Shown piece after piece: positions 5,196 through 37,648 of a DNA stretch of 46,641 nucleotides; the first letter of the stretch is position 1, and each line of letters opens with the position of its first letter. Made by a program: the position numbers and the translations under genes. The notes beneath the pieces are model-generated. The model was not told the origin of the DNA. It did no database searches and saw only the letters and a list, made by a program, of their open reading frames with translations. Origin of the DNA: Legionellales bacterium. Its GTDB lineage: Bacteria; Pseudomonadota; Gammaproteobacteria; Eutrophobiales; Eutrophobiaceae. The DNA lies in the NCBI GenBank assembly GCA_002721165.1, contig PBJS01000009.1, positions 70,124-116,764 on the forward strand, read 5' to 3'.

Positions 5196-6158
5196 ATGAT
5201 TGAAAATCAAAATAAAGAATTATTGACCATCATATCCCCTGCGTATAACGAGGCAGAAAATCTTGATGAGTTATATTCAAGAATATTGAATGCGACAGAA
5301 AATTTAAATCTGGAGATAGAAATTATTTATGTCAATGATGGCAGTAACGATAACACCATTGAGGTTATTAATAGGCAAAGCGAAAATGATGGTCGCATTA
5401 CTGTTATAGATTTAAGTAGAAATTTTGGAAAGGAAATAGCACTAACAGCAGGATTAGACCATGCATCTGGTGATGCCGTCATTGTTATTGACAGTGATTT
5501 ACAAGACCCTCCCGAAGTAATACCACAGTTAGTTGAAAAATGGCGTGATGGTAATGATGTTGTCAATGCTAAACGTATAAAGAGAAAGGGCGAAGGTCTA
5601 TTAAAGAAAATAACATCGTATACTTACTATCGATTATTATTTCATCTCAGCGATATAAAAATTCCTATGGATACCGGCGATTTTCGATTATTAAATAGAA
5701 ATGCGCTTAATGCGGTGTTGAAATTAAGAGAAAAACATCGCTATATGAAGGGATTATTTGCATGGGTTGGTTTTAAACAACAAGAAATACAATATGAGAG
5801 AGAAGCGCGATATAAGGGTAAAACTAAATGGAGTTTTTTCGGTTTGTTTAATCTAGCTTTTGACGGGCTTACTTCATTCTCTATCCTGCCATTACGATTA
5901 GCATCAACTGTTGGTTTTCTATCAGCATTATTTGGTTTTTTTTATGGAGCTACGATCGTTATTAAAAAAGTATTCTTTCATGAGCCAGTCGTTGGTTTCA
6001 CATCACTGGTTGTACTAATAACTTTTTTTGGCGGTATTCAATTACTTTCCATTGGTATTATTGGTGAATATATAGGAAGAATCTTTAATGAAACAAAAAA
6101 CAGACCTCTTTATATTGTTAAGAACATAAAAGAGTCTGTCTTTTCCAATAAGTCATAA
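5196..6158 (+). CDS. GtrB/YfdH-like GT2 polyprenyl-phosphate glycosyltransferase
   Basis: ISPAYNEAEN, VNDGS.DNT, SRNFGKEIALTAGLDHASGD, IDSDLQDPP (DxD), TGDFRL, two C-terminal hydrophobic helices then GEYIGRIF.ETK.RP.Y. Confidence 0.88.
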   Translation: MIENQNKELLTIISPAYNEAENLDELYSRILNATENLNLEIEIIYVNDGSNDNTIEVINRQSENDGRITVIDLSRNFGKEIALTAGLDHASGDAVIVIDSDLQDPPEVIPQLVEKWRDGNDVVNAKRIKRKGEGLLKKITSYTYYRLLFHLSDIKIPMDTGDFRLLNRNALNAVLKLREKHRYMKGLFAWVGFKQQEIQYEREARYKGKTKWSFFGLFNLAFDGLTSFSILPLRLASTVGFLSALFGFFYGATIVIKKVFFHEPVVGFTSLVVLITFFGGIQLLSIGIIGEYIGRIFNETKNRPLYIVKNIKESVFSNKS

Positions 6159-6201
6159 TATAAACTGATTTACATTGTATAAATTATTCAGTTAAAAAAT
6201 A

Positions 6202-7677
6202 ATGAGCATCCCAGAAAAAAATTGGTTTTTTTTCGCATTCTTAATTTATTCAGTAGTCGCTTGGTTTAGCGTCGGCCACTATCATGATGATGAGTACTAC
6301 CAGATATTAGATTTTGCTGCGTATAAGCTTGGCTTTGAAATGCAAAATACAGTTATGTGGGAATATAAGGAGGGCGTGAGAAGTGGTTTGCAACCCTTTA
6401 TTGCTTATGTAATTGCTAAAGGATTAACTTTTATTGATGTAACGTCTCCATTTATATGGGCTTTTTATCTGCGTTTAATTAGTTTAATTATTTCTTTTAT
6501 TTCTGTGTTTGCTTTTTTCCAGATTATTAAAAGGGATATAAAAACTGATAGAACCCAAGCTTTAGTTCTTTTCTTTCTTTTATTCTCCTGGATATTAGTG
6601 TTTTTAAATGTACGCTTTTCATCGGAAGGTTGGGCTACATCATTATTTATACTTGCTTATGCGCTATATTTTTTTCAAGAATCTGAAAAAACAAAAAAAT
6701 ATTTTTTTATCGGGATGCTGTTAGGCTTGGCGTTTTTGTCGAGATACCAAATAGGCTTCTTTATTCTTGGTTTTGGTATGTGGTTGTTATTACAAAAAAG
6801 TGAAAAAATTTCAAATATTTGGCTGATAATTTTAGGCTTTATTGCCTCGTTATCCATTGGTATTCTTTTAGATTACTGGCTCTACGGGAAACTAACATTA
6901 AGTTCTTGGAATTATTTTGAATGGCACATAATAAAAGGTTCCATAGATAATATTACTGAACCTTGGTGGTTTTATATTTACTACTCGATGGTTCAACTTA
7001 TACCTCCAATTACTCTATTTGTACCGCTTATCATTGCTGTCTTCTGGATATTATTCCCACGCCACCCCATAACATGGATAACTATACCTTTTATTCTATT
7101 TCATCATTATTTTGGGCATAAAGAGATGAGATATTTATTTCCTGTTATACCATTTCTTCCAATTATGTTTGCTATGTCAATCGAGGATCTTATAAAACGG
7201 TTTAAGTATTTAAATAAAAATATTTTTAAGTATTTATGTCAATCTGTCATCTATATTTCAGTATTTGTTAACATAATATTGGTTCTTTTGACTATTACTT
7301 TACCTGCTAGTAAGGAAGTTGCCCTTTGGCAAAATTGTTTTTCTAAAAATATTTCCAGCGAATCAGTGTTATTGACATATGATCCTGACGGGTCTGGTTC
7401 TACAACTGGCGAATTAGAATTAGATTTTTACAATGTGAATGATGTACCAATAATTTCGGTAAGTGATGAGGAGGAAATTTTTACAAAAAAAATTGAATTT
7501 CCTGATAAACAATTATTTTATGCTGCCAGAAAAAAAGGAAGAGCACCTGAACTTGCTAGTAAGGGAATTTCGAATCAGTTGATATGTCAGGGACTACCTG
7601 AATGGATTTTAAAATTTAATATAAATAATTGGACTTCCCGAGCAAGTATTTGGCAAATTTGGGAAATTAAGAAATAA
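6202..7677 (+). CDS. Multi-pass membrane glycosyltransferase, GT-C fold, resembling the PIG-B/ALG9 (GT22) family
   Basis: About 10 hydrophobic segments; first-loop acidic motif HDDEYYQ followed by WEY...RS; later PWWFY and HKEMRYLFP, which I recall as matching the HKE.RF..P motif of ALG9/PIG-B; C-terminal soluble tail. Family call from recalled motifs. Confidence 0.7.
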   Translation: MSIPEKNWFFFAFLIYSVVAWFSVGHYHDDEYYQILDFAAYKLGFEMQNTVMWEYKEGVRSGLQPFIAYVIAKGLTFIDVTSPFIWAFYLRLISLIISFISVFAFFQIIKRDIKTDRTQALVLFFLLFSWILVFLNVRFSSEGWATSLFILAYALYFFQESEKTKKYFFIGMLLGLAFLSRYQIGFFILGFGMWLLLQKSEKISNIWLIILGFIASLSIGILLDYWLYGKLTLSSWNYFEWHIIKGSIDNITEPWWFYIYYSMVQLIPPITLFVPLIIAVFWILFPRHPITWITIPFILFHHYFGHKEMRYLFPVIPFLPIMFAMSIEDLIKRFKYLNKNIFKYLCQSVIYISVFVNIILVLLTITLPASKEVALWQNCFSKNISSESVLLTYDPDGSGSTTGELELDFYNVNDVPIISVSDEEEIFTKKIEFPDKQLFYAARKKGRAPELASKGISNQLICQGLPEWILKFNINNWTSRASIWQIWEIKK

Positions 7678-21849: not shown

Positions 21850-22778
21850 TGACCACAAAAGACAATGTAAAAATTAGCAAAGGCTTACCAGATTTTCCGA
21901 CAATCGAATCTTTTGTAGGCAATACACCTTTGGTAAAACTTCAACGTTTGCCGGGAAATTCTACTAATATTATTTTGGGTAAACTTGAAGGCAATAATCC
22001 CGCTGGTTCAGTGAAGGATAGACCAGCACTGAGCATGATCAAGCACGCAGAAATGCGTGGAGAAATTAAACCCGGCGATACATTAATTGAGGCAACTAGC
22101 GGTAACACAGGTATTGCTCTGGCTATGGCAGCAGCAATTCGTGGCTATCGCATAATACTAATAATGCCTGAAAATATGAGTGTTGAACGACGTGCGGTAA
22201 TGAAAGCTTTTGGCGCTGAAATTGTATTGACTTCCGATGAGGGGAGTATGGAAGAGGCTATTGATGTTTCCCGTGAAATGGAGGCGCAAGGTAAAGGTAG
22301 AATATTAGATCAATTTGCTAACCCAGATAATCCTCGTTCACATTACGAGGGAACAGGCCCTGAATTATGGAGAGATACCAATGGAAAGATTACACACTTT
22401 GTAAGTGCAATGGGTACAACGGGGACAATAATGGGGACATCACGTTTTTTAAAAGAGATGAACCCAAATATTCAAATTATCGGTGTACAGCCTGAAGATG
22501 GTGCGCGAATCCCAGGTATTAGGCGTTGGCCTAAAGAGTATATGCCAAAAATTTTCGAATCTACAAGAGTTGATCGAATTATTGACGTTACACAATCTCT
22601 TGCGGAGGAAACAACTCTTGCTCTTGGCAAAATGGAAGGTATATTTGCCGGCATATCGTCCGGAGGTTCTGTGGCTGCTGCACTTCAGATATCTAGTGAA
22701 ATTGAAAATGCTGTTATAGTTTCAATTATTTGTGATCGGGGCGATCGTTATCTGTCAACGAATGTTTTTCCAGAATGA
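21849..22778 (+). CDS. cysM: Cysteine synthase B
   Basis: VGNTPLV, KLEGNNPAGSVKDR (PLP lysine), EATSGNTG, GTTGTIMG, IPGIRRWP, ICDRGDRYLS. Confidence 0.94.
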   Translation: MTTKDNVKISKGLPDFPTIESFVGNTPLVKLQRLPGNSTNIILGKLEGNNPAGSVKDRPALSMIKHAEMRGEIKPGDTLIEATSGNTGIALAMAAAIRGYRIILIMPENMSVERRAVMKAFGAEIVLTSDEGSMEEAIDVSREMEAQGKGRILDQFANPDNPRSHYEGTGPELWRDTNGKITHFVSAMGTTGTIMGTSRFLKEMNPNIQIIGVQPEDGARIPGIRRWPKEYMPKIFESTRVDRIIDVTQSLAEETTLALGKMEGIFAGISSGGSVAAALQISSEIENAVIVSIICDRGDRYLSTNVFPE

Positions 22779-22803
22779 TCCCATTAAAATATAGTACTCT
22801 AGA

Positions 22804-23583
22804 ATGAATATACTCGTTTTTGATATTGAGACAATTCCGGATATTGACTCAGGTAAAAAGATTTTTAATCTAGACGATCTTAGTGAGGAAAATGTTGTAC
22901 AAGTAATGCAAAATCATCGTTACCAACAAAGCGATGGCAAAACAGAATTTTTACAACTTTACCTACATAAGATCGTATCAATATCTGTTATTTTAAAAAC
23001 AAGTGATAAAATAAATGTATGGTCACTAGGAAATAAAAGTTCGTCTGAAGCAGAATTACTTGAACATTTTTATGAGGGAATAGAACGATACACCCCCACA
23101 CTTGTATCTTGGAATGGAAGTGGTTTTGATTTACCCGTCATGCATTATCGATCGCTTATACACGGCGTTGTTTCTCAACGCTACTGGGAAAGTGGTGACG
23201 GTGATCAATCTTTTCGTTGGAACAATTATTTATCTCGTTTCCATAGTAGGCATACAGATCTAATGGATGTTTTGTCAGGATATATCCCTACTGCTAAAGC
23301 ACCACTAGATAAAATCGCTACTATTTTAGGCTTCCCAGGAAAAATGGATATGAGTGGTGGAAAAGTTTGGGAAAAATATAGAGCTGGTGATATAGAGTCT
23401 ATTCGTAACTATTGTGAGACTGATGTACTTAATACATATTTAATTTATATGAGGTATCAATTAATACGAGGAAAATTAACGAATGATTCATATATTGAAG
23501 AATGTAATCAAGTACGTGAAATGCTAAAAAATAAAAAAAAATCGCATCTAGAAGAATTTCTTAAAGCCTGGCAAGATAGTTAA
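22804..23583 (+). CDS. Predicted 3'-5' exonuclease (PolB-exonuclease-related family)
   Basis: VFDIETIPD, SWNGSGFDLPV..YR, H.DLMD, GFPGK..M.G..V, YCETDV.NTY. Confidence 0.85.
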   Translation: MNILVFDIETIPDIDSGKKIFNLDDLSEENVVQVMQNHRYQQSDGKTEFLQLYLHKIVSISVILKTSDKINVWSLGNKSSSEAELLEHFYEGIERYTPTLVSWNGSGFDLPVMHYRSLIHGVVSQRYWESGDGDQSFRWNNYLSRFHSRHTDLMDVLSGYIPTAKAPLDKIATILGFPGKMDMSGGKVWEKYRAGDIESIRNYCETDVLNTYLIYMRYQLIRGKLTNDSYIEECNQVREMLKNKKKSHLEEFLKAWQDS

Positions 23584-23617
23584 AATATATTTATATTATT
23601 ACTGTTTTCTATAATAA

Positions 23618-25129
23618 ATGAGAACGGAAAAAAAAATATCACAAACTAAATATTTATTAATATTATATGTTATATTTTTTCAATTTTTCATTAGTAGTTG
23701 TAAGGATTCAAACAGAGAAACTATCGCAGTCGGTTTAAGTACTAGCCCAATAACTTTAGATCCACGTTATGCAACTGATGCAATTTCATATCGTATAACT
23801 AGATTACTTTATGAAAGCCTTGTAGATTTTGATGAAGAATTTCGTGTTAAACCTCAATTAGCAGATTGGCAAAAAATCTCACCAACTCATTACAGGTTTA
23901 GTTTAAGAAAAAACTTGAAAGAATTTCATAATGGTTCTCCACTAACATCTGAGGATGTTAGAGCAACATATCAATCAGTATTAAATCCAGAAGAGATCTC
24001 ACCACATAAAGGATCAATTGACATGATCAAATCAATCCATGCTGTGGACCCTAATACTATTGATTTCAAATTATTTTATGCTGATCCTCTTTTTCCCGGG
24101 CGTTTAGTAATAGGTATTTTGCCTAAGGAGTTAATTTCCAAAAAACATAATTTTTCCCGGCAACCTATTGGTAATGGCCCAATGAAAATTATAAGCTTCA
24201 AAAATGATAAGCATCTAAAATTGAAACGCCTCGATGACAATAAAATAATAGAATTTATAACATTAAAAGATCCTATAGTGAGAGTTTTGAAGTTACTGAG
24301 AGGCGAAATTGATTTAATTCGAGGTAATCTACCACCTGAGATTGTATCCTGGTTAGCAGAAAAAGATTCCATAAAGGTAAAGAAAAAAAAGGGAAGTACT
24401 TTTACATATCTTGGTTTTAATATGGAAGATCCGCTAACCGGTAATTATTATATTAGAAGCGCGATTGCGCACGCTATAGATAGAAAATCAATCATACGGC
24501 ATGTAATGGGAAAATCAGCAAGACAGGCTGAAGCATTGTTACCCCCAGAACATTGGGCTGGCAACTCTGATTTAGTGAGTTTGGATTATAATCCTGATAA
24601 ATCTAGGAGGTTACTAGCACAGGCCGGTTATAACGATTCATCTCCGCTTAGAATAATCTACAAAATATCAAATGACCCTTTTCGACTGCGCTTAGCAACA
24701 ATTATTCAAAGCCAATTAAAGTCTGTTGGAATTGAAGTAGAAATACGTAGTTATGACTGGGGAACTTTTTATGGTGATATTAAAGAAGGACGTTTTCAAA
24801 TGTATAGTCTCTCATGGGTCGGACTGAAAATTCCTGACATTTTTTATTACATATTCCATAGTAAATCCATTCCACCCCATGGGGCTAATCGAGGTAGACT
24901 TAATGACTATAATGTTGATTTAATTCTTGAATTAGCTAAATTTGAGGCGTCATTGGATAAACAAGCCCTTTATTATAAGGATTTACAAAAATATTTATTA
25001 GATATATTGCCTTATATACCTTTGTGGTATGAAGATAATATATTGGTGTCTAAATCTGATATAAAAGGTTATAAACTAAATACCGATGGTAATTTTGATT
25101 CACTTAGATACGTAACAAAAAATAATTAA
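23618..25129 (+). CDS. ABC transporter substrate-binding lipoprotein, family 5 (Dpp/Opp/Nik-like)
   Basis: Lipobox ISSC (Cys28); LDPR.A, LYESLV, IGNGP, YLGFN..DP, R.AIAHAIDR, YIPLWY motifs. Confidence 0.88.
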   Translation: MRTEKKISQTKYLLILYVIFFQFFISSCKDSNRETIAVGLSTSPITLDPRYATDAISYRITRLLYESLVDFDEEFRVKPQLADWQKISPTHYRFSLRKNLKEFHNGSPLTSEDVRATYQSVLNPEEISPHKGSIDMIKSIHAVDPNTIDFKLFYADPLFPGRLVIGILPKELISKKHNFSRQPIGNGPMKIISFKNDKHLKLKRLDDNKIIEFITLKDPIVRVLKLLRGEIDLIRGNLPPEIVSWLAEKDSIKVKKKKGSTFTYLGFNMEDPLTGNYYIRSAIAHAIDRKSIIRHVMGKSARQAEALLPPEHWAGNSDLVSLDYNPDKSRRLLAQAGYNDSSPLRIIYKISNDPFRLRLATIIQSQLKSVGIEVEIRSYDWGTFYGDIKEGRFQMYSLSWVGLKIPDIFYYIFHSKSIPPHGANRGRLNDYNVDLILELAKFEASLDKQALYYKDLQKYLLDILPYIPLWYEDNILVSKSDIKGYKLNTDGNFDSLRYVTKNN

Positions 25130-25136
25130 TATATTT

Positions 25137-25616
25137 ATGCATATTAAAGTATCTATTTTTCAACAACAGCTGATTCTTTTAGATGAGGATAGGGCGGTTA
25201 GAGAATTTTTTGTTTCTACTGCTAAAAATGGTGCAGGGGAGAAAAAGAATAGTGAATGTACTCCACAGGGAAAACACATCATCACAGAAAAAATTGGTTA
25301 TGGGGCTAGAGAAAATTCTGTTTTTGTCGGTAGAGTAGAAACAAATGAATTGTATAAACCTGAATTACGCGATTTATTCCCAGAAAGAGATTGGATACTT
25401 ACAAGAATACTATGGCTAAGTGGTTTAGAAGAGGGCAAGAATAAAGGCGGTGACGTCGATACCCATGACAGATATATTTATATACACGGTTCTCCTGATG
25501 ATATTGAAATGGGCAAGGCTGGTTCGAAAGGATGTATTCGAATGCGAAATTCTGATGTTATTGAATTATTTGATTTAGTAGAAGTTGGAACGACTGTAAC
25601 TATTAGTGAAAGATAA
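25137..25616 (+). CDS. YkuD-domain (L,D-transpeptidase fold) protein without signal peptide, ElsL-like
   Basis: VSTA.NG.GE, TP.G.H, RDWILTRILWL.GLE.G.N, RYIYIHG, S.GCIRM (His117/Cys133); single domain, no hydrophobic N-terminus. Confidence 0.85.
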   Translation: MHIKVSIFQQQLILLDEDRAVREFFVSTAKNGAGEKKNSECTPQGKHIITEKIGYGARENSVFVGRVETNELYKPELRDLFPERDWILTRILWLSGLEEGKNKGGDVDTHDRYIYIHGSPDDIEMGKAGSKGCIRMRNSDVIELFDLVEVGTTVTISER

Positions 25617-25636
25617 AAAATATATAAAATAAAACA

Positions 25637-26563
25637 GTGTATCTCAATTATATAATTAAACGATTGTTCAGTGCTGTTTTTGTATTGTTTAGTATATTAA
25701 CTCTAGTATTTTTCTTGATTCATATTGTTCCTGGTGATCCTATTGAGGTAATGTTGGGTGAGACAGCTAGAACAACCGATAGAGAAGCCTTAAGGCATGC
25801 TCTCGGTTTGGATTTACCAATTATTCAACAGTGGTTAATTTATTTACATAGTTTTTTTCACTTTGATCTCGGAACATCATTACATTCTAAACAACAGGTT
25901 AGTCAATTGTTGTTAGAACATGCATTACCAACAGCTATATTAAGTTTAGCTAGTTTGTTTGTCGCAATTCTAATTTCCGTTCCACTAGGAATATTGTCAG
26001 CAGTGCATAAGGATTCTATTTTAGACAAATTTTCAATGATGACAGCAGTACTCGGTGTTTCTATCCCTAACTTTGTTATGGGCCCGCTATTGATTTTGAC
26101 TTTTTCACTTTGGCTAGGTTGGTTTCCCGTAAGCGGTAATGAAGGTGTGACTTCATTAATCCTTCCAGCATTGACACTAGGCACCGCACTTGCTGCAATT
26201 TTGTCACGAATGATACGCTCTTCGATGCTAGAAGTTTTACAAGAAGACTATATACGATCAGCATATGCTCGCGGATTGACTAAATTTAATGTCTTAGTAT
26301 TTCATGCGTTACGTAATGCTGTATTGCCGATAGTTACCATCTTGGGAATGCAGCTTGGAACCCTTTTAGCAGGTGCCGTCATCACAGAAACTATATTTGC
26401 ATGGCCAGGCATTGGCCAGTTGATTATAGAGTCTATACAAAAAAGAGATTATCCGGTTATTCAAGGCTGTGTAATATTAATCAGTTTTACTTATGTACTA
26501 GTCAATCTTGTTACTGATTTTATTTGCTTATCACTAGACCCAAGAATTAAATTAGATTCATGA
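25637..26563 (+). CDS. Peptide-type ABC transporter permease (DppB-like)
   Basis: PGDP, LGLD.P...Q, DLG.S, RS.MLEVL.EDYIR.A.ARGL (EAA loop), H.LRNA..P, FAWPGIG, RDYPVIQG; GTG start. Confidence 0.92.
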   Translation: MYLNYIIKRLFSAVFVLFSILTLVFFLIHIVPGDPIEVMLGETARTTDREALRHALGLDLPIIQQWLIYLHSFFHFDLGTSLHSKQQVSQLLLEHALPTAILSLASLFVAILISVPLGILSAVHKDSILDKFSMMTAVLGVSIPNFVMGPLLILTFSLWLGWFPVSGNEGVTSLILPALTLGTALAAILSRMIRSSMLEVLQEDYIRSAYARGLTKFNVLVFHALRNAVLPIVTILGMQLGTLLAGAVITETIFAWPGIGQLIIESIQKRDYPVIQGCVILISFTYVLVNLVTDFICLSLDPRIKLDS

Positions 26564-27354
26564 TGAAAAAAATTAATATACCTTTTTTTATAATTAAATT
26601 TTGGTTTGTTTGCGGCATATTGGCATTAATATTACCGTTGCAGCCTGACCAAATCGAATTGAACAAAATTCTTTTAGGACCGAATTTAGAACAATGGTGT
26701 GGCTACGATCATTTAGGCCGTCCGATTTGCGAACGGCTAATTATGGGAGCAAAAACATCTTTGAGTGTTGCAATTGTTGTTGTCTTAATATCTTTTATTG
26801 TCGGTACTTTTTTTGGCGTAATTTGTGCATGGCTTGGTGGAATTTATGATAAATTTCTTGTAGCGATGATTGATATTTTTATTTCCTTTCCTGGAATTTT
26901 ATTAGCAATTGTACTAGCTGGGTTGTTAGGACCAGGTTTAGCAAATACAGTTATAGCGTTGTCTATTGTAAGTTGGGTTGGGTTTTCTAGATTGGCTAGA
27001 ATACAAACACTAAGCATTAAGAATCGTGATCATATTATTGCAGCGCATGCTCTTGGAACATTAGATTATGTGATTGCGTTAAAACACATTTTACCATTAA
27101 TAATTGCGCCATTAATTATCGAAGCAACATTTACAATTGCAAGTGTCATTATTGCTGAGGCGGGTTTATCGTTTTTAGGTTTGGGTATACAGCCTCCGGC
27201 AGCTTCTTGGGGGACTATGATACGCGATGGAACTCAATATATGTTGGTAGCTCCACATATGGTTTTAGCTCCGGGATTTGCTATTCTCTCACTGGTACTA
27301 TGCATAAACCTTATGGGTGATGATATGAGAGACAGAATGGATATTAGAGATTAA
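26560..27354 (+). CDS. Peptide-type ABC transporter permease (DppC-like)
   Basis: G.D.LGR, G.KTSL, AA.ALG...HILP, EAGLSFLGLG.QPP..SWG.M, NL.GD..RD; ATGA overlap with the previous permease. Confidence 0.92.
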   Translation: MMKKINIPFFIIKFWFVCGILALILPLQPDQIELNKILLGPNLEQWCGYDHLGRPICERLIMGAKTSLSVAIVVVLISFIVGTFFGVICAWLGGIYDKFLVAMIDIFISFPGILLAIVLAGLLGPGLANTVIALSIVSWVGFSRLARIQTLSIKNRDHIIAAHALGTLDYVIALKHILPLIIAPLIIEATFTIASVIIAEAGLSFLGLGIQPPAASWGTMIRDGTQYMLVAPHMVLAPGFAILSLVLCINLMGDDMRDRMDIRD

Positions 27355-27356
27355 AA

Positions 27357-28403
27357 ATGAGAAATCACGCAGCTCCTAGAGCATTACAATTAGGGTCGAT
27401 CATGTGCGATATAAACGGGCTTGATCTAGATGAAGATGAACGCGAACTATTGCTTCATCCTCTAATTGGCGGCGTTATTTTATTTTCTCGTAATTATGAT
27501 TCGCCAAAACAATTAGCAGAATTAACCAGTAAGATTCATGGATTACGACATCCTTCGTTACTAATTGCGGTAGATCATGAAGGAGGTAGAATCCAACGGT
27601 TTCGCAATGGTTTCAGCCAATTACCCGCATGTAGTCTGTTTGGCGCACATAAATCAACAAAAGAAGCAAACCTACTAGCCGAATATGCTGGTTGGCTTAT
27701 GTCTACTGAATTATTATCAGTAGGCATAGATTTTAGTTTTGCTCCCGTGCTAGATGTTGGCGGAAACAGAAGTGAAGTAATAGGCGATCGTGCATTTCAT
27801 ACTGAGCCAAAACAGATTTCTAGTTTAACGAAAGCTTTTACGACTGGCATGAATGAAGCCGGTATGGCGGCTGTTGGGAAGCACTTCCCGGGTCATGGTT
27901 CGGTTATTGAGGATTCTCACTTTTCTGCACCATCGGATCCACGTTCATTTAATGATATTAATGAACGAGATTTGATACCTTTCAGGGATCTAATAAATTT
28001 TGGTATTTTAGGATTAATGCCAGCACATGTTGTATATTCAGAGATTGATAAGGTACCGGCAGGATTTTCATCTATTTGGTTAAAAGAGATTTTGAGAAAA
28101 CAGTTGAAATTTCAGGGGGCAATTTTTAGCGATGATCTCAGTATGGCTGGCGCTGAGATTGTTGGAGATTATACTAAAAGAACAAAACTCGCGCTTGAAG
28201 CCGGTTGCGATATGGTATTAATCTGTAATAGTAGGCAGGGTTTAATTTCTGTAATGGATAATAATAAAGTATCTACTAATGATTGTTCTCTAACTCGTTT
28301 AGAGAAAATGCATGGTAATTTTAATTACATTTATAGTGATCTGAAAAATAAAAAAATATGGCAAGAACGTTCTAAAAAAATCGAAAGTTTTTTAAATAAA
28401 TAA
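27357..28403 (+). CDS. nagZ: Beta-N-acetylhexosaminidase NagZ
   Basis: GGVILF.RN, VDHEGGR.QR, FAPVLD, KHFPGHG, DSH, M.AHV, SDDLSM.GA GH3 motifs. Confidence 0.95.
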   Translation: MRNHAAPRALQLGSIMCDINGLDLDEDERELLLHPLIGGVILFSRNYDSPKQLAELTSKIHGLRHPSLLIAVDHEGGRIQRFRNGFSQLPACSLFGAHKSTKEANLLAEYAGWLMSTELLSVGIDFSFAPVLDVGGNRSEVIGDRAFHTEPKQISSLTKAFTTGMNEAGMAAVGKHFPGHGSVIEDSHFSAPSDPRSFNDINERDLIPFRDLINFGILGLMPAHVVYSEIDKVPAGFSSIWLKEILRKQLKFQGAIFSDDLSMAGAEIVGDYTKRTKLALEAGCDMVLICNSRQGLISVMDNNKVSTNDCSLTRLEKMHGNFNYIYSDLKNKKIWQERSKKIESFLNK

Positions 28404-28426
28404 TTTTTAATTATAGGCGAGACTAA

Positions 28427-29530
28427 ATGAATTTTTCAGAATTGATGGAGTTTAACAAAGATTTTTTCGGCGATGAAACATGGATAATAGAAGTTTTTAT
28501 AATTGTATTATTGACGGGATTTATAAATTTCATACAAAAAAGATCTCATCATAAGATTCTTTCAAAGCTTAAAAAGACAAAAACTTTTTGGGATGATATA
28601 TTTTTCGAGGCCGCCAAGAAACCGCTGTCACTCTTAATTTGGATAACTGGTCTTGCTTTTGCAGCAGATATAGCAGAGGAACACACAGGGTCAATTATCT
28701 TTGGTGCTGTTTCACCTTTATATCAAATTGGCGTACTCATTGTAATAGGCTGGTTCTTAATAAGATTTATAACGTACGCCGAAAGCAATATTATTTCGAC
28801 TAAACAATCTGCTGGCGAGGAGATTGACCAGACAACCATTGATGCTATTGCTAAATTACTTCGTATTTCAGTAATCATTATAGGTTTTTTAGTTGCTCTC
28901 CAATCACTAGGGTTCAGTATTTCAGGTGTTCTAGCTTTTGGTGGTGTTGGAGGTATTGCTGTTGGTTTTGCAGCAAGAGACTTATTAGCTAATTTTTTTG
29001 GCGGGTTGATGATCTATATGGATCGCCCTTTTAATGTTGGCGACTGGATTCGATCACCAGATAAAGAAATTGAGGGAACCGTTGAAAAAATAGGATGGCG
29101 ATTAACAACTATCAGAACATTCGATAAAAGACCTTTGTATGTTCCAAATTCAGTATTCAATAACATCTCTGTTGAAAATCCTTCAAGGATGTCTAACAGA
29201 AGAATTAAAGAAACAATAGGAATTCGTTATGATGATTTGTCTAAAATGGAAAAAATTATTGATGATGTAAAAAGAATGCTGAAAAATCACTCTGATATTG
29301 ATACGACAAAAATCTTAATAGTAAATTTTGATGAATTTGCCCCTTCTTCATTAGATTTTTTTATTTATACCTTCACTAAAACTACTGATTGGGTTCGTTA
29401 TCATGAGATTAAGCAAGACATACTATTGAACGTTATAAAGATTATTGAATCAAATGGCGCTGAGTGCGCTTTTCCAACATCGACATTACACGTTTCGTCG
29501 ATGATTGACGCTTCTGATAAAGAGGCTTAG
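28427..29530 (+). CDS. MscS-family mechanosensitive channel
   Basis: Several N-terminal TMs, GG.GGIAVGFAA.D, D.PF.VGDWI, GTVE.IGWR.T, VPN, FP. Confidence 0.92.
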   Translation: MNFSELMEFNKDFFGDETWIIEVFIIVLLTGFINFIQKRSHHKILSKLKKTKTFWDDIFFEAAKKPLSLLIWITGLAFAADIAEEHTGSIIFGAVSPLYQIGVLIVIGWFLIRFITYAESNIISTKQSAGEEIDQTTIDAIAKLLRISVIIIGFLVALQSLGFSISGVLAFGGVGGIAVGFAARDLLANFFGGLMIYMDRPFNVGDWIRSPDKEIEGTVEKIGWRLTTIRTFDKRPLYVPNSVFNNISVENPSRMSNRRIKETIGIRYDDLSKMEKIIDDVKRMLKNHSDIDTTKILIVNFDEFAPSSLDFFIYTFTKTTDWVRYHEIKQDILLNVIKIIESNGAECAFPTSTLHVSSMIDASDKEA

Positions 29531-29576
29531 TAACTAAAGTATTTCATTTATATTTTTTGGGTTTTTATTTAAGAAA

Positions 29577-30407
29577 ATGATACTCGAATTCACAAAAATG
29601 CAGGGAACAGGAAATGATTTCGTTATATTTGATACATTTTCTCAATCTATTTCGCTAAATTCTAAGCAAATAAAGCGCATAGCGAATCGACGTTTAGGCG
29701 TTGGCTGCGATCAAATTTTATTGTTAGAGCCACCAAAGAATGATGAGGCAGATGTTTATTATCGAATTTTTAATTCTGATGGCACTGAAGTTATGCAATG
29801 TGGAAATGGCGCACGTTGTGCGGCTATATACCTTAACAGTAAAGGTTTGATTAAAAAAAACACTATTATTGCAGAAACTAAAAACAGCAAACTCATTTTA
29901 GAAATTAATAACAATCACTCTGTCACTGTAAATATGGGTATACCAGAATTTGATCCTGTTAATATACCACTGGACGTAGATCAAAAATTGGATACTTATT
30001 CTTTAAGCCTAGGAGATGAAAAAATTATTTTTGGGGCGGTTTCCTTTGGGAATCCTCATGCTGTGATAATTGTAGATGATGTGGAAGCTGCATTTGTGGG
30101 ACCCATTGGCGAGGCTTTTCAAAAACAAGCGATTTTTCCTGAAGGCGTAAATGTAGGTTTTGTTCAGATTTTAAATCAAAAGACTATTAAACTACGTGTG
30201 TATGAACGTGGAGTTGGCGAAACTCTTGCTTGTGGTAGCGGTGCTTGCGCCGCAGTCGTAATTGCACACGAACAAGGCCATCTAGATAAAGCTGTAGATG
30301 TAGAATTGAGAGGGGGCTGTTTATCACTAAGCTGGGAAGGAAAAGGAATGCCAGTATATATGAGTGGTTCTGTATCAACGGTGTATGAGGGGGAAATTGA
30401 GTTATGA
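29577..30407 (+). CDS. dapF: Diaminopimelate epimerase
   Basis: FTKMQGTGNDF, CGNGARC, GNPHAV, ERGVGET.ACGSGAC. Confidence 0.97.
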   Translation: MILEFTKMQGTGNDFVIFDTFSQSISLNSKQIKRIANRRLGVGCDQILLLEPPKNDEADVYYRIFNSDGTEVMQCGNGARCAAIYLNSKGLIKKNTIIAETKNSKLILEINNNHSVTVNMGIPEFDPVNIPLDVDQKLDTYSLSLGDEKIIFGAVSFGNPHAVIIVDDVEAAFVGPIGEAFQKQAIFPEGVNVGFVQILNQKTIKLRVYERGVGETLACGSGACAAVVIAHEQGHLDKAVDVELRGGCLSLSWEGKGMPVYMSGSVSTVYEGEIEL

Positions 30408-31111
30408 GTCTAAAAGAAAAAGAGAATCATATTTCGGAAAGTCTTTCAGAGAATTTAGTTACTGATTATCTAAAAAATAACCCAAATTTTTTTGTTGAAA
30501 ATCCTTTAATTCTAACCGAATTAAAAATACCTCATGAGAGTGGAACTGCAATTTCACTTGTTGAAAAACAATTAGCTGTGCTTCGCGATCAAAATGAAGA
30601 GACTAATCAAAGGATATGTGAACTTATAGAAATAGCACGTAATAATGAAAAACTTGCTCGTCGCATGCATCAATTAGCGCTTACTTTAATAGATGCTAAT
30701 AATCCAAAAGATGTTTTCACAGCATTGTATGAAAATTTGAAGAAAAATTTTCATGCTGATAGTGTTGTTGTACGATTATTTGCCGATCCTATATTTATAG
30801 ATCCTCCTCGTGTAGAAGAATTTGTAGGTAAAAGTTCTGAAGATGAATCGTTATTTAAGAATATTATTGAAAGTCGGGAACCACAAAGCGGAAAAATAAA
30901 TCGACAACAAGAAGTATTTTTGTTTGGCGATAAAAAAAATGATATCGCATCATCTGTAATAATACCTTTACATGGCTTCAGGTGGACTGGCGTACTTGCT
31001 ATTGGAAGTTTTGATGCCGAATATTTTAAACCGGGAATGGGCATTGAATTGCTAGCTAATCTAGGTGAAATTTTAAGTTTTATTATAAAACCATGGGTTG
31101 AGAAAAAATAA
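30404..31111 (+). CDS. DUF484 (YigA) family protein
   Basis: YL..NP.FF, IPH..G.AISLVEKQ...LR, A..N, M.T..L; position between dapF and xerC. Confidence 0.88.
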   Translation: MSLKEKENHISESLSENLVTDYLKNNPNFFVENPLILTELKIPHESGTAISLVEKQLAVLRDQNEETNQRICELIEIARNNEKLARRMHQLALTLIDANNPKDVFTALYENLKKNFHADSVVVRLFADPIFIDPPRVEEFVGKSSEDESLFKNIIESREPQSGKINRQQEVFLFGDKKNDIASSVIIPLHGFRWTGVLAIGSFDAEYFKPGMGIELLANLGEILSFIIKPWVEKK

Positions 31112-36340: not shown

Positions 36341-37648
36341 TTATCCGGCTTTCTTAAGATGAATTGAAAGTCCTTTTAATACATTCAATGCTTCGTAGAG
36401 TTGATAATCAGTTTCTGCCAGAGATGAGTTATCAACGTTATCTTTTTTTTGATTCGAATCATTTTTAGTGACTTCACTATCGAGATGACCAGTTAAATCG
36501 GATTCTTTAATTAGTCCATTACCCATATTATTATTTTGTTTAACATCAAATTTTATATTTTTTACAATCATATCAGGTTCAATGCCAGATGCTTGTATCG
36601 AACGTCCCGAAGGCGTGTAATACCGCGCAGTTGTCAATTTTAATGCAGTTTCATCATTCATTGGAAGAATAGTTTGTACAGAGCCTTTACCAAATGTACG
36701 CTCTCCCATGATAATTGCTCTTCTATGGTCCTGTAGAGCGCCAGCAACTATCTCTGATGCAGAAGCTGAACCACCATTAACGAGTACAATAATGGGAATG
36801 TCTTTAAACATTTCACTTGGTTTAGCATTAAATTTTAATTTTGATCCTTTTACTCTTCCTTCAGTGTAAACAATTAATCCTTCGTCAAGGAATAAATCGG
36901 AAACACCAACTGCTGCATTGAGTAGACCACCAGGGTTATTTCTCAGATCTAAAACTAATCCTTTTAGCATATTATTATTTTCACTTTCTAATTTCGTAAG
37001 CGCCTTACTTAAATCATCTACTGTATGTATTTGAAAGTTTGAGATACGTATATATCCAAAAGCAGACTCTATTGTTTCAGCTTTAATGTTTTTAACTGTA
37101 ATAATGTCCCGTACTATAGTTACATTAAATGGTTTTTCTTCACCCCCTCTTAGTATAGTCAATTCAATTTCACTCCCTGGCTTACCTCTCATCATTTTAA
37201 CTGCTTCCATGAGAGAAATACCCTTAACAGATTTACCATCTAAACGAATGATCAAATCTCCCGCTTTGATCCCTGCTCGTTTTGCAGGTGTGTCATCAAT
37301 TGGGGATATCACTTTTACAAAACCATCTTCATAACCAACCTCTATTCCAAGTCCGCCAAACTCTCCTGAAGTCCCTTCCTGTAGTTCTTTATAAGAATCT
37401 TTATCTAAATATGCAGAGTGTGGATCAAGACCCTGTAGCATTCCTCTTATTGCATTTTTTAGAAGCGTGCTATCTTCAATATTTTCAACGTAGTCACTTT
37501 TAATTTTTGAAAAAATCTCTGTGAAAATCCTTATCTCATTTAAAGGCAGGGTATTAACTTCTTGTTTTTTTTCAGAGTTCGCCAGACTAAAACTGCTTGT
37601 TATAAAAAAAAACGTAATAACGTATGATATTTTTTTAAATATAGTCAT
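36341..37648 (-). CDS. ctpA: S41 carboxy-terminal processing protease
   Basis: LDPHS.Y, FGGLGIEV (PDZ), LDLRNNPGG, GSASASEIVAGALQD, TFGKGSVQ, TTA.YYTPSG. Confidence 0.93.
   Translation of the reverse strand: MTIFKKISYVITFFFITSSFSLANSEKKQEVNTLPLNEIRIFTEIFSKIKSDYVENIEDSTLLKNAIRGMLQGLDPHSAYLDKDSYKELQEGTSGEFGGLGIEVGYEDGFVKVISPIDDTPAKRAGIKAGDLIIRLDGKSVKGISLMEAVKMMRGKPGSEIELTILRGGEEKPFNVTIVRDIITVKNIKAETIESAFGYIRISNFQIHTVDDLSKALTKLESENNNMLKGLVLDLRNNPGGLLNAAVGVSDLFLDEGLIVYTEGRVKGSKLKFNAKPSEMFKDIPIIVLVNGGSASASEIVAGALQDHRRAIIMGERTFGKGSVQTILPMNDETALKLTTARYYTPSGRSIQASGIEPDMIVKNIKFDVKQNNNMGNGLIKESDLTGHLDSEVTKNDSNQKKDNVDNSSLAETDYQLYEALNVLKGLSIHLKKAG

What the first reader, a model, noticed from the sequence alone, without database searches (positions are those of the whole stretch)
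23618..28403. Candidate muropeptide import and recycling operon: Dpp-type ABC transporter interleaved with a YkuD enzyme and nagZ
Seen: SBP lipoprotein, YkuD protein, permease, permease and nagZ are co-oriented with gaps of 7, 20, -4 and 2 nt, so the peptidoglycan enzymes are physically embedded in the transporter operon. Knowledge: NagZ acts in the cytoplasm on imported GlcNAc-anhMurNAc-peptides, which E. coli imports through AmpG. Family-5 ABC systems can carry murein peptides (MppA/Opp) and, in Agrobacterium, muropeptides (Yej/YepA). Inference: this is an AmpG-independent uptake route feeding NagZ and a cytoplasmic L,D-carboxypeptidase, using an SBP that would normally be annotated only as a peptide or nickel binder.
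Basis: partly seen in the sequence, partly recalled or inferred. Interest (0 to 1): 0.7.

Follow-up and report, generated by a model that had tools for sequence, protein, structure and literature searches.

The report
Candidate cell-wall fragment import and recycling cluster
A marine gammaproteobacterium carries a binding-protein-dependent ABC importer interleaved with two cytoplasmic cell-wall recycling enzymes; many related bacteria keep the same arrangement, so it is probably an undescribed uptake route for the cell's own wall fragments, though the cargo and the motor ATPase are unknown.

Summary
Five co-oriented genes lie at 23618-28403 with gaps of 7, 20, -4 and 2 nt. They encode a family-5 SBP lipoprotein, a leaderless YkuD protein whose best match is the ElsL L,D-carboxypeptidase, two Dpp/Nik-like permeases and NagZ.

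In 80 related genome loci:
- SBP-ElsL are adjacent in 54 of 75.
- PermB-PermC are adjacent in 31 of 32.
- PermC-NagZ are adjacent in 21 of 29, mostly overlapping.
- Candidatus Tenderia electrophaga keeps the five-gene core with different flanks.

All 239 SBP family members examined lack the aspartate that clamps a free peptide N-terminus in DppA, OppA and MppA. The family also lacks the nickel residues of NikA and NikZ. This fits an N-blocked stem peptide such as a muropeptide but does not prove it.

Three things are not shown:
- "AmpG-independent" could not be tested.
- No ABC ATPase gene lies in the window or near any relative.
- Neighbouring housekeeping genes are also syntenic, so gene order alone is weaker evidence than it looks.

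No paper describing this cluster was found. This is a new variant of the ABC-type peptidoglycan-recycling importer, not homologous in detail to YejBEF-YepA or MppA-Opp.

The parts
23618..25129 (+). Family-5 substrate-binding lipoprotein (503 aa). It founds a distinct, well-conserved subfamily and is the proposed receptor for peptidoglycan fragments.
   Evidence: Pfam SBP_bac_5, 3.6e-67. No NCBIfam equivalog reaches its cutoff; the best is 135 bits against 650. Lipobox ISSC28. The position of DppA D408 / OppA D419 holds L, I or V in 239/239 relatives. NikA H416/R137/R97 and the NikZ HH-prong are absent. AF2 model pLDDT 90.6, cluster-C SBP fold, best TM 0.85 to CjNikZ at 25% identity.
25137..25616 (+). 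Leaderless YkuD-domain protein (159 aa), an ElsL-type cytoplasmic L,D-carboxypeptidase homologue. Its proposed role is trimming stem tetrapeptide to tripeptide.
   Evidence: NCBIfam NF040925 ElsL, 1.9e-54, 183.8 bits, residues 3-158 on profile positions 8-160 of 164. This is below the 'exception' cutoff of 270, and the next best L,D-transpeptidase models score only 4e-7. It has no N-terminal extension. The catalytic H117...S-K-G-C133-I-R motif is present, as in 120/120 relatives. ElsL function is taken from PMC8649774.
25637..26563 (+). ABC importer permease, DppB/NikB-like (308 aa).
   Evidence: Pfam BPD_transp_1 plus BPD_transp_1_N. 40% identity to E. coli DppB, 37% to NikB, 27% to YejB. NCBIfam Opp2B scores 357.8 bits against a cutoff of 350. 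An EAA-type loop (EDYIRSAYARGL...ALRNA) is visible in the translation.
26560..27354 (+). ABC importer permease, DppC/NikC-like (264 aa). It overlaps the previous gene by 4 nt.
   Evidence: Pfam BPD_transp_1. 36% identity to DppC, 34% to NikC, 26% to YejE. PermB-PermC are adjacent in 31/32 related loci, median gap -4 nt.
27357..28403 (+). NagZ, a cytoplasmic beta-N-acetylglucosaminidase (GH3) that removes GlcNAc from GlcNAc-(anh)MurNAc-peptides.
   Evidence: NCBIfam equivalog NF003740, 452 bits (cutoff 207), and Pfam Glyco_hydro_3, 1.2e-78. KHFPGHG...DSH motif and no signal peptide. Directly downstream of PermC in 21/29 related loci, median gap -6.5 nt.

Best explanation
The locus encodes the receptor and membrane channel of a Dpp/Nik-like (PepT-family) ABC importer dedicated to the cell's own peptidoglycan turnover products. 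It is co-encoded with the first two cytoplasmic processing enzymes.

Proposed mechanism:
1. Lytic transglycosylases release GlcNAc-1,6-anhydroMurNAc-tetrapeptide into the periplasm.
2. The membrane-tethered lipoprotein SBP captures it. The pocket has no clamp for a free alpha-amino group, which fits a stem peptide whose L-Ala is acylated by MurNAc.
3. The PermB/PermC heterodimer translocates it, driven by one or two ATPase subunits encoded elsewhere in the genome.
4. In the cytoplasm NagZ removes GlcNAc, and the ElsL-type L,D-carboxypeptidase removes D-Ala4. The tripeptide can then be re-used by Mpl, with AmpD acting in between; both would be encoded elsewhere.

Shown: gene identities, order and overlaps, conservation of the arrangement, the state of the diagnostic SBP residues, and low-level expression in the ocean.

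Inferred: the ligand, the import direction, the trans ATPase, and the link to Mpl and AmpD.
For: -
- Conserved arrangement in 80 genome loci with SBP identity 50-79%. SBP-ElsL are adjacent in 54/75 (median gap 10 nt), PermB-PermC in 31/32, and PermC-NagZ in 21/29 (median gap -6.5 nt, suggesting translational coupling).
- When unrelated genes are inserted (GGDEF/TPR genes, mlaFEDB), they fall between ElsL and PermB. Both enzyme-transporter pairs stay intact.
- The closed genome of Ca. Tenderia electrophaga keeps the five genes with different flanks on both sides.
- The two enzymes act on two different parts of one molecule, the disaccharide-tetrapeptide. ElsL cleaves disaccharide-tetrapeptide to tripeptide in vitro (PMC8649774).
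- The SBP family has L, I or V in place of the N-terminus-clamping Asp of DppA, OppA and MppA in 239/239 members, and T or I in place of DppA R355. E. coli YejA, a homologue of the Agrobacterium muropeptide binder YepA, also lacks this Asp (PMC9790009).
- Nickel signatures are absent.
- An ABC-type muropeptide importer has a precedent: YejBEF-YepA.
- Contigs from runs labelled as RNA match all five genes. One spans the ElsL/PermB junction.
Against: - No ligand data exist.
- Flanking housekeeping genes are syntenic too: cysM-polBexo adjacent in 18/33, NagZ-MscS in 13/22, MscS-DapF in 8/14. Part of the conservation is therefore inherited gene order.
- 15 of 75 loci have no ElsL downstream of the SBP within the locus held. 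Nitrospirales loci have SBP-PermB-PermC without ElsL or NagZ.
- No ABC ATPase gene lies in the window or within 10 kb in any relative.
- NikA also lacks the clamp Asp, so its absence is not specific to muropeptide binders.
- PermB passes NCBIfam's 'nickel permease' cutoff, and the nearest folds are NikZ proteins.
- The RNA evidence consists of low-depth assembled contigs, and DNA carry-over cannot be excluded.
Confidence: 0.55

Rival explanations
1. An MppA/Opp-like scavenger of free murein peptides. The SBP binds the free tetra- or tripeptide (L-Ala-D-Glu-mDAP-(D-Ala)), the permeases import it, and ElsL trims it for Mpl. NagZ is only co-regulated and works on disaccharide-peptides imported by AmpG, which the genome would still possess.
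For: - The tightest and most widespread pairing is SBP-ElsL, 54/75, and ElsL's substrate is defined by the peptide.
- MppA/Opp transports only freed peptides and coexists with AmpG in E. coli (PMC10622912).
- Family-5 SBPs are classically peptide binders.
- Absence of ampG was not demonstrated.
Against: - The Asp that binds the free alpha-amino group in DppA, OppA and MppA is replaced by L, I or V in 239/239 family members. A free peptide would therefore need a non-canonical binding mode.
- The SBP is not closer to MppA (23% identity) than to DppA or NikA.
- PermC-NagZ overlap in most genomes, which ties NagZ to the channel genes themselves.
Confidence: 0.2
2. The transporter carries a cargo unrelated to the cell wall, such as nickel or another metal chelate, ordinary peptides, or an amino-sugar compound such as chitobiose. 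elsL and nagZ sit beside it only because this chromosomal block is inherited intact in these lineages.
For: - PermB exceeds the NCBIfam Opp2B 'nickel ABC transporter permease' cutoff, 357.8 against 350.
- The best structural neighbours are NikZ nickel binders, TM 0.85.
- Unrelated genes (cysM, polB-exo, rlmD, mscS, dapF) are also syntenic.
- Nitrospirales carry SBP-PermB-PermC alone.
- Family-5 SBPs also bind sugars and sugar acids, for example sialic acid and agrocinopine among the fold hits.
Against: - NikA residues H416, R137 and R97 are not conserved.
- The NikZ GHHG 'HH-prong' is replaced by G-N-[FY] in most members, and 'HH' occurs in 1 of 239 C-terminal tails.
- No nikR, nikDE, urease or hydrogenase genes were seen nearby.
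- The canonical peptide-clamp residues are absent.
- Insertions and changes of flank spare the SBP-ElsL and PermC-NagZ junctions.
- An L,D-carboxypeptidase has no role in chitin or metal metabolism.
Confidence: 0.15
3. The permeases are no longer a working importer: a relic without ATPase, or a module with a non-transport role such as signalling through the SBP.
For: No ATPase gene lies in cis in the window, in 80 loci, or in the closed Tenderia locus.
Against: - Both permeases are intact, full length and 55-88% identical across orders, with EAA-type loops.
- The SBP has about 75 invariant positions in 119 sequences.
- Contigs from runs labelled as RNA match all five genes.
- This is the pattern of purifying selection on a working system. 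ATPases shared in trans are known for other ABC importer families (general knowledge).
Confidence: 0.05

Closest known systems
YejBEF-YepA muropeptide ABC importer of Agrobacterium tumefaciens (PMC9790009)
   Same: - A family-5 SBP plus two PepT-family permeases proposed or shown to import anhydromuropeptides that NagZ then processes.
- Part of the system is encoded away from the rest: yepA there, the ATPase here.
- The clamp Asp is absent in the related E. coli YejA.
   Different: - Not orthologous. PermB and PermC are 27% and 26% identical to YejB and YejE, against 40% and 36% to DppB and DppC. The SBP aligns with YejA over only 219 residues, E = 3e-7.
- There is no fused YejF ATPase.
- Here the recycling enzymes ElsL and NagZ are inside the cluster.
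- The carriers are Gammaproteobacteria, and their ampG status is unknown.
- A. tumefaciens has no L,D-carboxypeptidase or Mpl.
MppA-OppBCDF murein tripeptide uptake of E. coli (PMC10622912)
   Same: A dedicated family-5 SBP feeds a PepT-type ABC importer with cell-wall-derived peptide material for recycling.
   Different: - MppA keeps the Asp clamp (motif SWVGDYNEP) and binds free peptides only. This family has SWVG[LIV]K.PD.
- MppA borrows the whole Opp channel and ATPases, whereas here the SBP has its own permeases and no ATPase.
- The SBP is 23% identical to MppA.
AmpG, the MFS muropeptide:H+ symporter
   Same: The proposed cargo (GlcNAc-anhMurNAc-peptides) and the downstream enzymes (NagZ and the L,D-carboxypeptidase) are the same.
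   Different: - The transporter class and energy source are entirely different: ATP with an SBP against proton-motive force.
- No AmpG homologue is in the window or the flanks.
- Whether the two coexist in these genomes is unknown.
DppABCDF / NikABCDE (E. coli) and NikZ-type nickel importers
   Same: These are the closest sequence and fold relatives of the SBP and permeases. Gene order is SBP first, then the permeases.
   Different: - DppA D408 and R355, NikA H416, R137 and R97, and the NikZ HH-prong are all missing.
- No DppDF or NikDE genes are present.
- A YkuD gene is inserted between the SBP and the permeases, and nagZ is fused to the operon's end.
ElsL of Acinetobacter baumannii (PMC8649774)
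   Same: A leaderless single YkuD domain of about 160 aa with the catalytic Cys. It matches the ElsL model over its full length.
   Different: - It scores below NCBIfam's strict ElsL cutoff, 183.8 against 270.
- In A. baumannii the substrate arrives through AmpG. That species is reported to lack Opp (PMC13507758 abstract), and the ElsL paper mentions no link to a transporter gene.

Membership tests
PepT-family (Opp/Dpp/Nik) binding-protein-dependent ABC importer | Family-5 (cluster C) substrate-binding protein | tested here: met
   Pfam SBP_bac_5, 3.6e-67. AF2 model TM 0.73-0.85 to DppA, NikZ and AppA.
PepT-family (Opp/Dpp/Nik) binding-protein-dependent ABC importer | Two BPD_transp_1 permeases (B- and C-type) with an EAA coupling loop | tested here: met
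   The loop is visible in the translations.
PepT-family (Opp/Dpp/Nik) binding-protein-dependent ABC importer | One or two ABC ATPase subunits encoded with the system | tested here: not met
   The window has no ORF with both Walker A and the ABC signature, and no tblastn hit to DppD/F, NikD/E or YejF. None of Dpp/Nik type is within 10 kb in 80 loci, except a fused Dpp-like ATPase 8 kb upstream in L065, separated by unrelated genes. None is in the Tenderia locus. The rest of the genome is not testable.
MppA-type murein peptide binding protein | Asp that salt-bridges the free alpha-amino group of L-Ala (the W-x-[GA]-D motif shared with OppA D419 and DppA D408) | tested here: not met
   L, I or V at that position in 239/239 family members.
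MppA-type murein peptide binding protein | Close sequence relationship to OppA/MppA | tested here: not met
   23% identity to each, no better than to DppA or NikA. In the single-sequence search, the PDB MppA match covers mainly the C-terminal half.
YejBEF-YepA muropeptide importer | Permeases orthologous to YejB/YejE, and the fused ATPase YejF | tested here: not met
   27% and 26% identity to YejB and YejE, against 40% and 36% to DppB and DppC. The NCBIfam YejB model scores 120 bits against a cutoff of 445. There is no YejF.
YejBEF-YepA muropeptide importer | SBP orthologous to YepA (Atu1774) | not testable with these tools
   No YepA sequence was available. Only E. coli YejA could be compared, and it gave a weak local match.
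ElsL-class cytoplasmic L,D-carboxypeptidase | Leaderless single YkuD domain with the catalytic His/Cys motif | tested here: met
   159 aa. The domain starts at residue 2. H117 and the SKGC133IR motif are present, as in 120/120 relatives.
ElsL-class cytoplasmic L,D-carboxypeptidase | Score above the NCBIfam NF040925 cutoff | tested here: not met
   183.8 bits against a cutoff of 270. It is nevertheless full length, E = 1.9e-54, far ahead of the L,D-transpeptidase models. It is a family homologue but not a strict equivalog.
ElsL-class cytoplasmic L,D-carboxypeptidase | Cleaves tetrapeptide to tripeptide and not pentapeptide | not testable with these tools
   Needs an enzyme assay. Shown only for A. 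baumannii ElsL.
NagZ (GH3 beta-N-acetylglucosaminidase of peptidoglycan recycling) | Equivalog model score, KH(F/I)PGHG...D(S/T)H motif, no signal peptide | tested here: met
   NF003740 scores 452 bits against 207. The motif GKHFPGHGSVIEDSH and a cytoplasmic-type N-terminus are seen.
Nickel importers (NikABCDE; NikZ type) | Nickel or nickelophore ligands: NikA H416, R137, R97; NikZ GHHG HH-prong and v-loop His | tested here: not met
   The NikA positions hold I/V/L/T, a gap, and A/I/V. NikZ H480/H481 align with N492/F493. The site reads N-[FY] in most members, and 'HH' occurs in the C-terminal tail of only 1 of 239.
Nickel importers (NikABCDE; NikZ type) | Permease equivalog score | tested here: inconclusive
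   PermB scores 357.8 against the Opp2B cutoff of 350, which is met. PermC scores 251 against the Opp2C cutoff of 300, which is not met.
   No AmpG homologue is in the window or in about 1.3 Mb of flanks.

The most novel reading that the evidence does not exclude
This SBP/permease family would be the main or only muropeptide importer, functionally replacing AmpG, in a broad set of Gammaproteobacteria: marine uncultured lineages, sulfur oxidisers and Tenderia. It would work with a membrane-anchored lipoprotein receptor that recognises the MurNAc-blocked stem peptide, and with ATPase subunits borrowed from another locus. That would be a second, independently evolved ABC route for peptidoglycan recycling besides YejBEF-YepA.
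Probability: 0.25. Interest if true: 0.7.

Novelty: new variant of a known kind. Interest (0 to 1): 0.55.

Why it matters
Peptidoglycan recycling controls beta-lactamase induction, the release of immunostimulatory muropeptides and cell-wall economy. Its known uptake routes are few: AmpG, MppA/Opp, CadB and YejBEF-YepA, as reviewed in PMC11509177.

A conserved gammaproteobacterial ABC system with ElsL and NagZ built into it would:
- add a route of independent origin;
- give the ElsL family a genomic partner;
- correct the routine 'peptide/nickel' annotation of thousands of proteins;
- offer a simple sequence marker, SWVG[LIV]K.PD in place of W-x-G-D, for N-blocked-peptide binders.

For oligotrophic marine bacteria it would also bear on how cell-wall carbon and nitrogen are retained or scavenged.

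Tried and rejected
- **Promoter and terminator scan of 22700-30500.** Counts equalled the shuffled expectation (35 against 33.9; 3 against 3.7), so it says nothing about operon limits.
- **Rfam scan of the window.** No riboswitch or leader lies near the cluster. The only hit was a borderline one elsewhere.
- **AF2 with a 16-sequence alignment.** It failed, pLDDT 49. A 119-sequence alignment gave pLDDT 90.6. The fold search then only returned the whole cluster-C family at similar scores (TM 0.73-0.85, 18-26% identity), so it did not discriminate ligands.
- **Search for a cis ATPase.** The ABC ATPases found in flanks are MlaF (inside an mlaFEDB insertion), a MacB-type pair, an EttA-like protein and, in L065, the end of another Dpp-like operon 8 kb away. 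All were rejected as partners.
- **Search for AmpG in the flanks.** None was found, but this is expected by chance and is not evidence of absence.
- **Homologue searches with the YkuD protein and a second SBP.** Close relatives saturated the results, which reached few cultured organisms. Only Ca. Tenderia electrophaga was named.
- **Loci without ElsL.** The downstream genes are unrelated: chemotaxis genes, RNase G, glyA/nrdR and a transposase. No alternative carboxypeptidase was seen.
- **Literature.** Four searches found no description of an SBP-YkuD-permease-nagZ cluster.

Full report
**What is there**

- 23618-25129 (503 aa)
- 25137-25616 (159 aa)
- 25637-26563 (308 aa, GTG start)
- 26560-27354 (264 aa)
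- 27357-28403 (348 aa)

All are on the + strand, separated by 7, 20, -4 and 2 nt.

Pfam and NCBIfam identify them as follows.
- **SBP.** A family-5 solute-binding protein. No NCBIfam equivalog comes near its cutoff; the best are Opp4A at 135 bits against 650, and NikA- and DppA-type models at about 121 bits.
- **YkuD protein.** A single-domain YkuD protein. Its best model by far is the cell-wall-recycling L,D-carboxypeptidase ElsL (1.9e-54, 183.8 bits, full length). That is below the strict cutoff of 270, and the L,D-transpeptidase models score only 4e-7.
- **PermB.** A DppB/NikB-like permease. It just passes the 'Opp2B nickel permease' cutoff, 357.8 against 350.
- **PermC.** A DppC/NikC-like permease.
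- **NagZ.** Equivalog score 452 against 207, with the KHFPGHG...DSH motif and no signal peptide.

The SBP has a signal peptide ending in the lipobox ISSC28. The Cys is present in at least 90% of 119 aligned relatives, and the residue after it is A, S, T or K, never D. The YkuD protein has no leader and carries H117 and the SKGC133IR catalytic motif, as do 120 of 120 relatives.

The source is an uncultured marine gammaproteobacterium of about 34% G+C. It is widespread in ocean metagenomes.

**Is it more than chance?**

Short gaps alone are not informative here. The window from 14278 to 35556 is a single co-directional array of more than 20 genes with gaps of a few tens of bases. A promoter and terminator scan is at background.

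The informative evidence is comparative. A scan of one genome per species found at least 588 stretches encoding relatives of the SBP. The best 80 (50-79% identity) were fetched with 10-kb flanks. Adjacency in these loci was as follows.

| Gene pair | Adjacent / loci with room | Median gap |
|---|---|---|
| SBP-ElsL | 54 / 75 | 10 nt |
| PermB-PermC | 31 / 32 | -4 nt |
| PermC-NagZ | 21 / 29 | -6.5 nt |
| ElsL-PermB | 18 / 52 | |

In 14 more loci ElsL and PermB are separated by 0.4-8.7 kb of plainly unrelated genes. L026 has a GGDEF protein and a TPR protein there, and L038 has mlaFEDB. Both enzyme-transporter pairs stay intact in these loci.

The closed genome of Candidatus Tenderia electrophaga keeps SBP-YkuD-PermB-PermC-NagZ. 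Its flanks differ on both sides: CYTH upstream, and cytochrome c peroxidase, hpt and MTA phosphorylase downstream.

**Limits of the synteny argument**

- Housekeeping neighbours are syntenic too. cysM-polBexo are adjacent in 18/33 loci. rlmD usually sits between polB-exo and the SBP. NagZ-mscS are adjacent in 13/22 and mscS-dapF in 8/14. Part of the signal is therefore inherited gene order. The enzyme-transporter junctions are only moderately more conserved, though much tighter, than the flanks.
- 15 of 75 loci have no ElsL after the SBP. These are mostly large sulfur bacteria, with unrelated neighbours.
- Nitrospirales carry SBP-PermB-PermC without ElsL or NagZ nearby.

**The missing motor**

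No ABC ATPase is encoded in the 46.6-kb window. There is no ORF with both Walker A and the ABC signature, and no tblastn hit to DppD/F, NikD/E or YejF. None of the Dpp/Nik type lies within 10 kb of the SBP in the 80 loci or in Tenderia.

The ATPases seen in flanks are MlaF, a MacB-type pair, an EttA-like protein and, in L065, the end of another Dpp-like operon 8 kb away.

Both permeases are intact and 55-88% identical across lineages, and they retain EAA-type loops. I therefore infer a working channel energised by ATPases encoded elsewhere. Which ones is unknown.

**What the SBP can and cannot bind**

By sequence and profile alignment, DppA D408, OppA D419 and the equivalent MppA Asp sit in the motif W-x-[GA]-D. 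This Asp clamps the free alpha-amino group of a peptide ligand (named from established structures, from my own knowledge).

- In the new family the motif is SWVG[LIV]K.PD. The position holds L, I or V in 239 of 239 full-length members from two searches.
- DppA R355, the C-terminal carboxylate partner, is T or I.
- E. coli NikA and YejA also lack the Asp. YejA is 38.7% identical to the Agrobacterium muropeptide binder YepA in that organism.
- E. coli NikA's H416, R137 and R97 are not conserved.
- The 'GHHG' double-His prong that marks NikZ-type nickel binders (bioRxiv 10.1101/2022.10.03.510666) aligns with G-N492-F493. It reads N-[FY] in most members, and 'HH' occurs in only 1 of 239 C-terminal tails.

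A confident AF2 model (pLDDT 90.6) has the ordinary cluster-C fold. Foldseek ranks CjNikZ, a B. anthracis SBP, AppA, DppA, GbpA, a sialic-acid binder and MppA at similar scores (TM 0.73-0.85, 18-26% identity), so the fold does not decide the ligand. The only internal low-confidence stretch, 418-424, lies in the highly conserved PPxGANRG loop.

In sum, the receptor is not a canonical peptide binder and not a NikA- or NikZ-type nickel binder. A ligand without a free N-terminal amine, such as a stem peptide still attached to MurNAc, fits but is not proven.

**Expression**

Assembled contigs from four runs labelled as RNA (one of them only provisionally) match all five genes at low depth. One contig spans the ElsL/PermB junction (25430-25715), and one spans the NagZ/mscS junction (28286-28436). 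This is weak support for transcription in situ. DNA carry-over cannot be excluded.

**Mechanism proposed, confidence 0.55**

1. A lipoprotein SBP captures periplasmic GlcNAc-anhMurNAc-tetrapeptide.
2. PermB/PermC import it, using ATPases supplied in trans.
3. NagZ removes GlcNAc, and the ElsL-type enzyme removes D-Ala4.
4. AmpD and Mpl, encoded elsewhere, complete the re-use.

The main argument is that two separate junctions each tie a transporter component to an enzyme, and both junctions survive rearrangement. The two enzymes act on different ends of the same molecule. ElsL cleaves disaccharide-tetrapeptide in vitro and is essential for safe recycling in A. baumannii (PMC8649774).

**Rivals**

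- A free murein-peptide scavenger like MppA/Opp, with NagZ merely co-regulated: 0.2.
- A cargo unrelated to the cell wall, with inherited synteny: 0.15.
- A non-functional or non-transport module: 0.05.

**Comparison with known systems**

- It works like YejBEF-YepA (PMC9790009) but is not a member of that family. The permeases are Dpp/Nik-like, 40% and 36% identical to DppB and DppC against 27% and 26% to YejB and YejE. There is no YejF.
- It is not an MppA/Opp system. The clamp Asp is missing, identity to MppA is 23%, and it has its own permeases.
AmpG is absent from the window and from about 1.3 Mb of flanks, which is expected by chance. Whole genomes were out of reach.

**Novelty and verdict**

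Four literature searches and a 2024 review of muropeptide transporters list AmpG, MppA/Opp, CadB and YejBEF-YepA but nothing like this cluster. The ElsL paper's main text mentions no transporter linkage.

I rate it a new variant of a known kind, interest 0.55.

Noticed in passing
window 28427-29530 (+); E. coli locus L089: The MscS-family channel just downstream of nagZ is 51% identical over 234 aa to E. coli YnaI. In E. coli K-12, ynaI lies next to mppA, the murein-tripeptide binding protein. NagZ-MscS adjacency is kept in 13 of 22 related loci. This may be coincidence or a relic.
   Followed up: partly
window 25637-26563: PermB passes NCBIfam's cutoff for 'Opp2B nickel ABC transporter permease' (357.8 against 350). 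Automatic annotation would therefore call it a nickel permease, although the cognate SBP lacks the NikA and NikZ nickel residues.
   Followed up: yes
window 23618-25129, residues 28-31: The SBP is a lipoprotein in a Gram-negative organism. The residue after the lipid-modified Cys is A, S, T or K, never Asp, across the family. By the E. coli sorting rule it would go to the outer membrane, which would be odd for an importer's receptor.
   Followed up: partly
window 23618-25129, residues 418-424: In the otherwise confident AF2 model, the only internal low-confidence stretch lies in the highly conserved PPxGANRG loop. It could be a mobile ligand lid.
   Followed up: no
window 23584-23617, compared with L014, L026, L038, L043, L051: Most relatives have rlmD (23S rRNA m5U methyltransferase) between the PolB-like exonuclease gene and the SBP. 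The window lineage has only a 34-nt gap there.
   Followed up: partly
window 36634-36946 (+): A borderline Rfam hit to Rickettsia sRNA47 (60.6 bits against a gathering score of 60) lies antisense inside the ctpA gene (36341-37648, - strand). It is probably coding-sequence similarity rather than an sRNA.
   Followed up: no
window 14278-35556: One uninterrupted co-directional array of more than 20 genes (ilvBNC, psd, pssA, leuA, udg, rimI, cysM ... dapF, xerC, ubiE, ubiB) with short gaps. This is typical of a streamlined genome, and it makes gap length useless as an operon criterion here.
   Followed up: no
L061, L069, L084 (Nitrospirales MAGs): SBP-PermB-PermC at 50-54% identity occur in a different phylum without ElsL or NagZ nearby, and again without an ATPase. 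This suggests horizontal transfer of the transporter core alone.
   Followed up: partly
window 5196-7677 (+): A GT2 glycosyltransferase lies next to a large ArnT/PMT-like membrane protein. This looks like an undecaprenyl-phosphate sugar transfer pair for modifying lipid A or another envelope glycan. The assignment was made by eye only.
   Followed up: no
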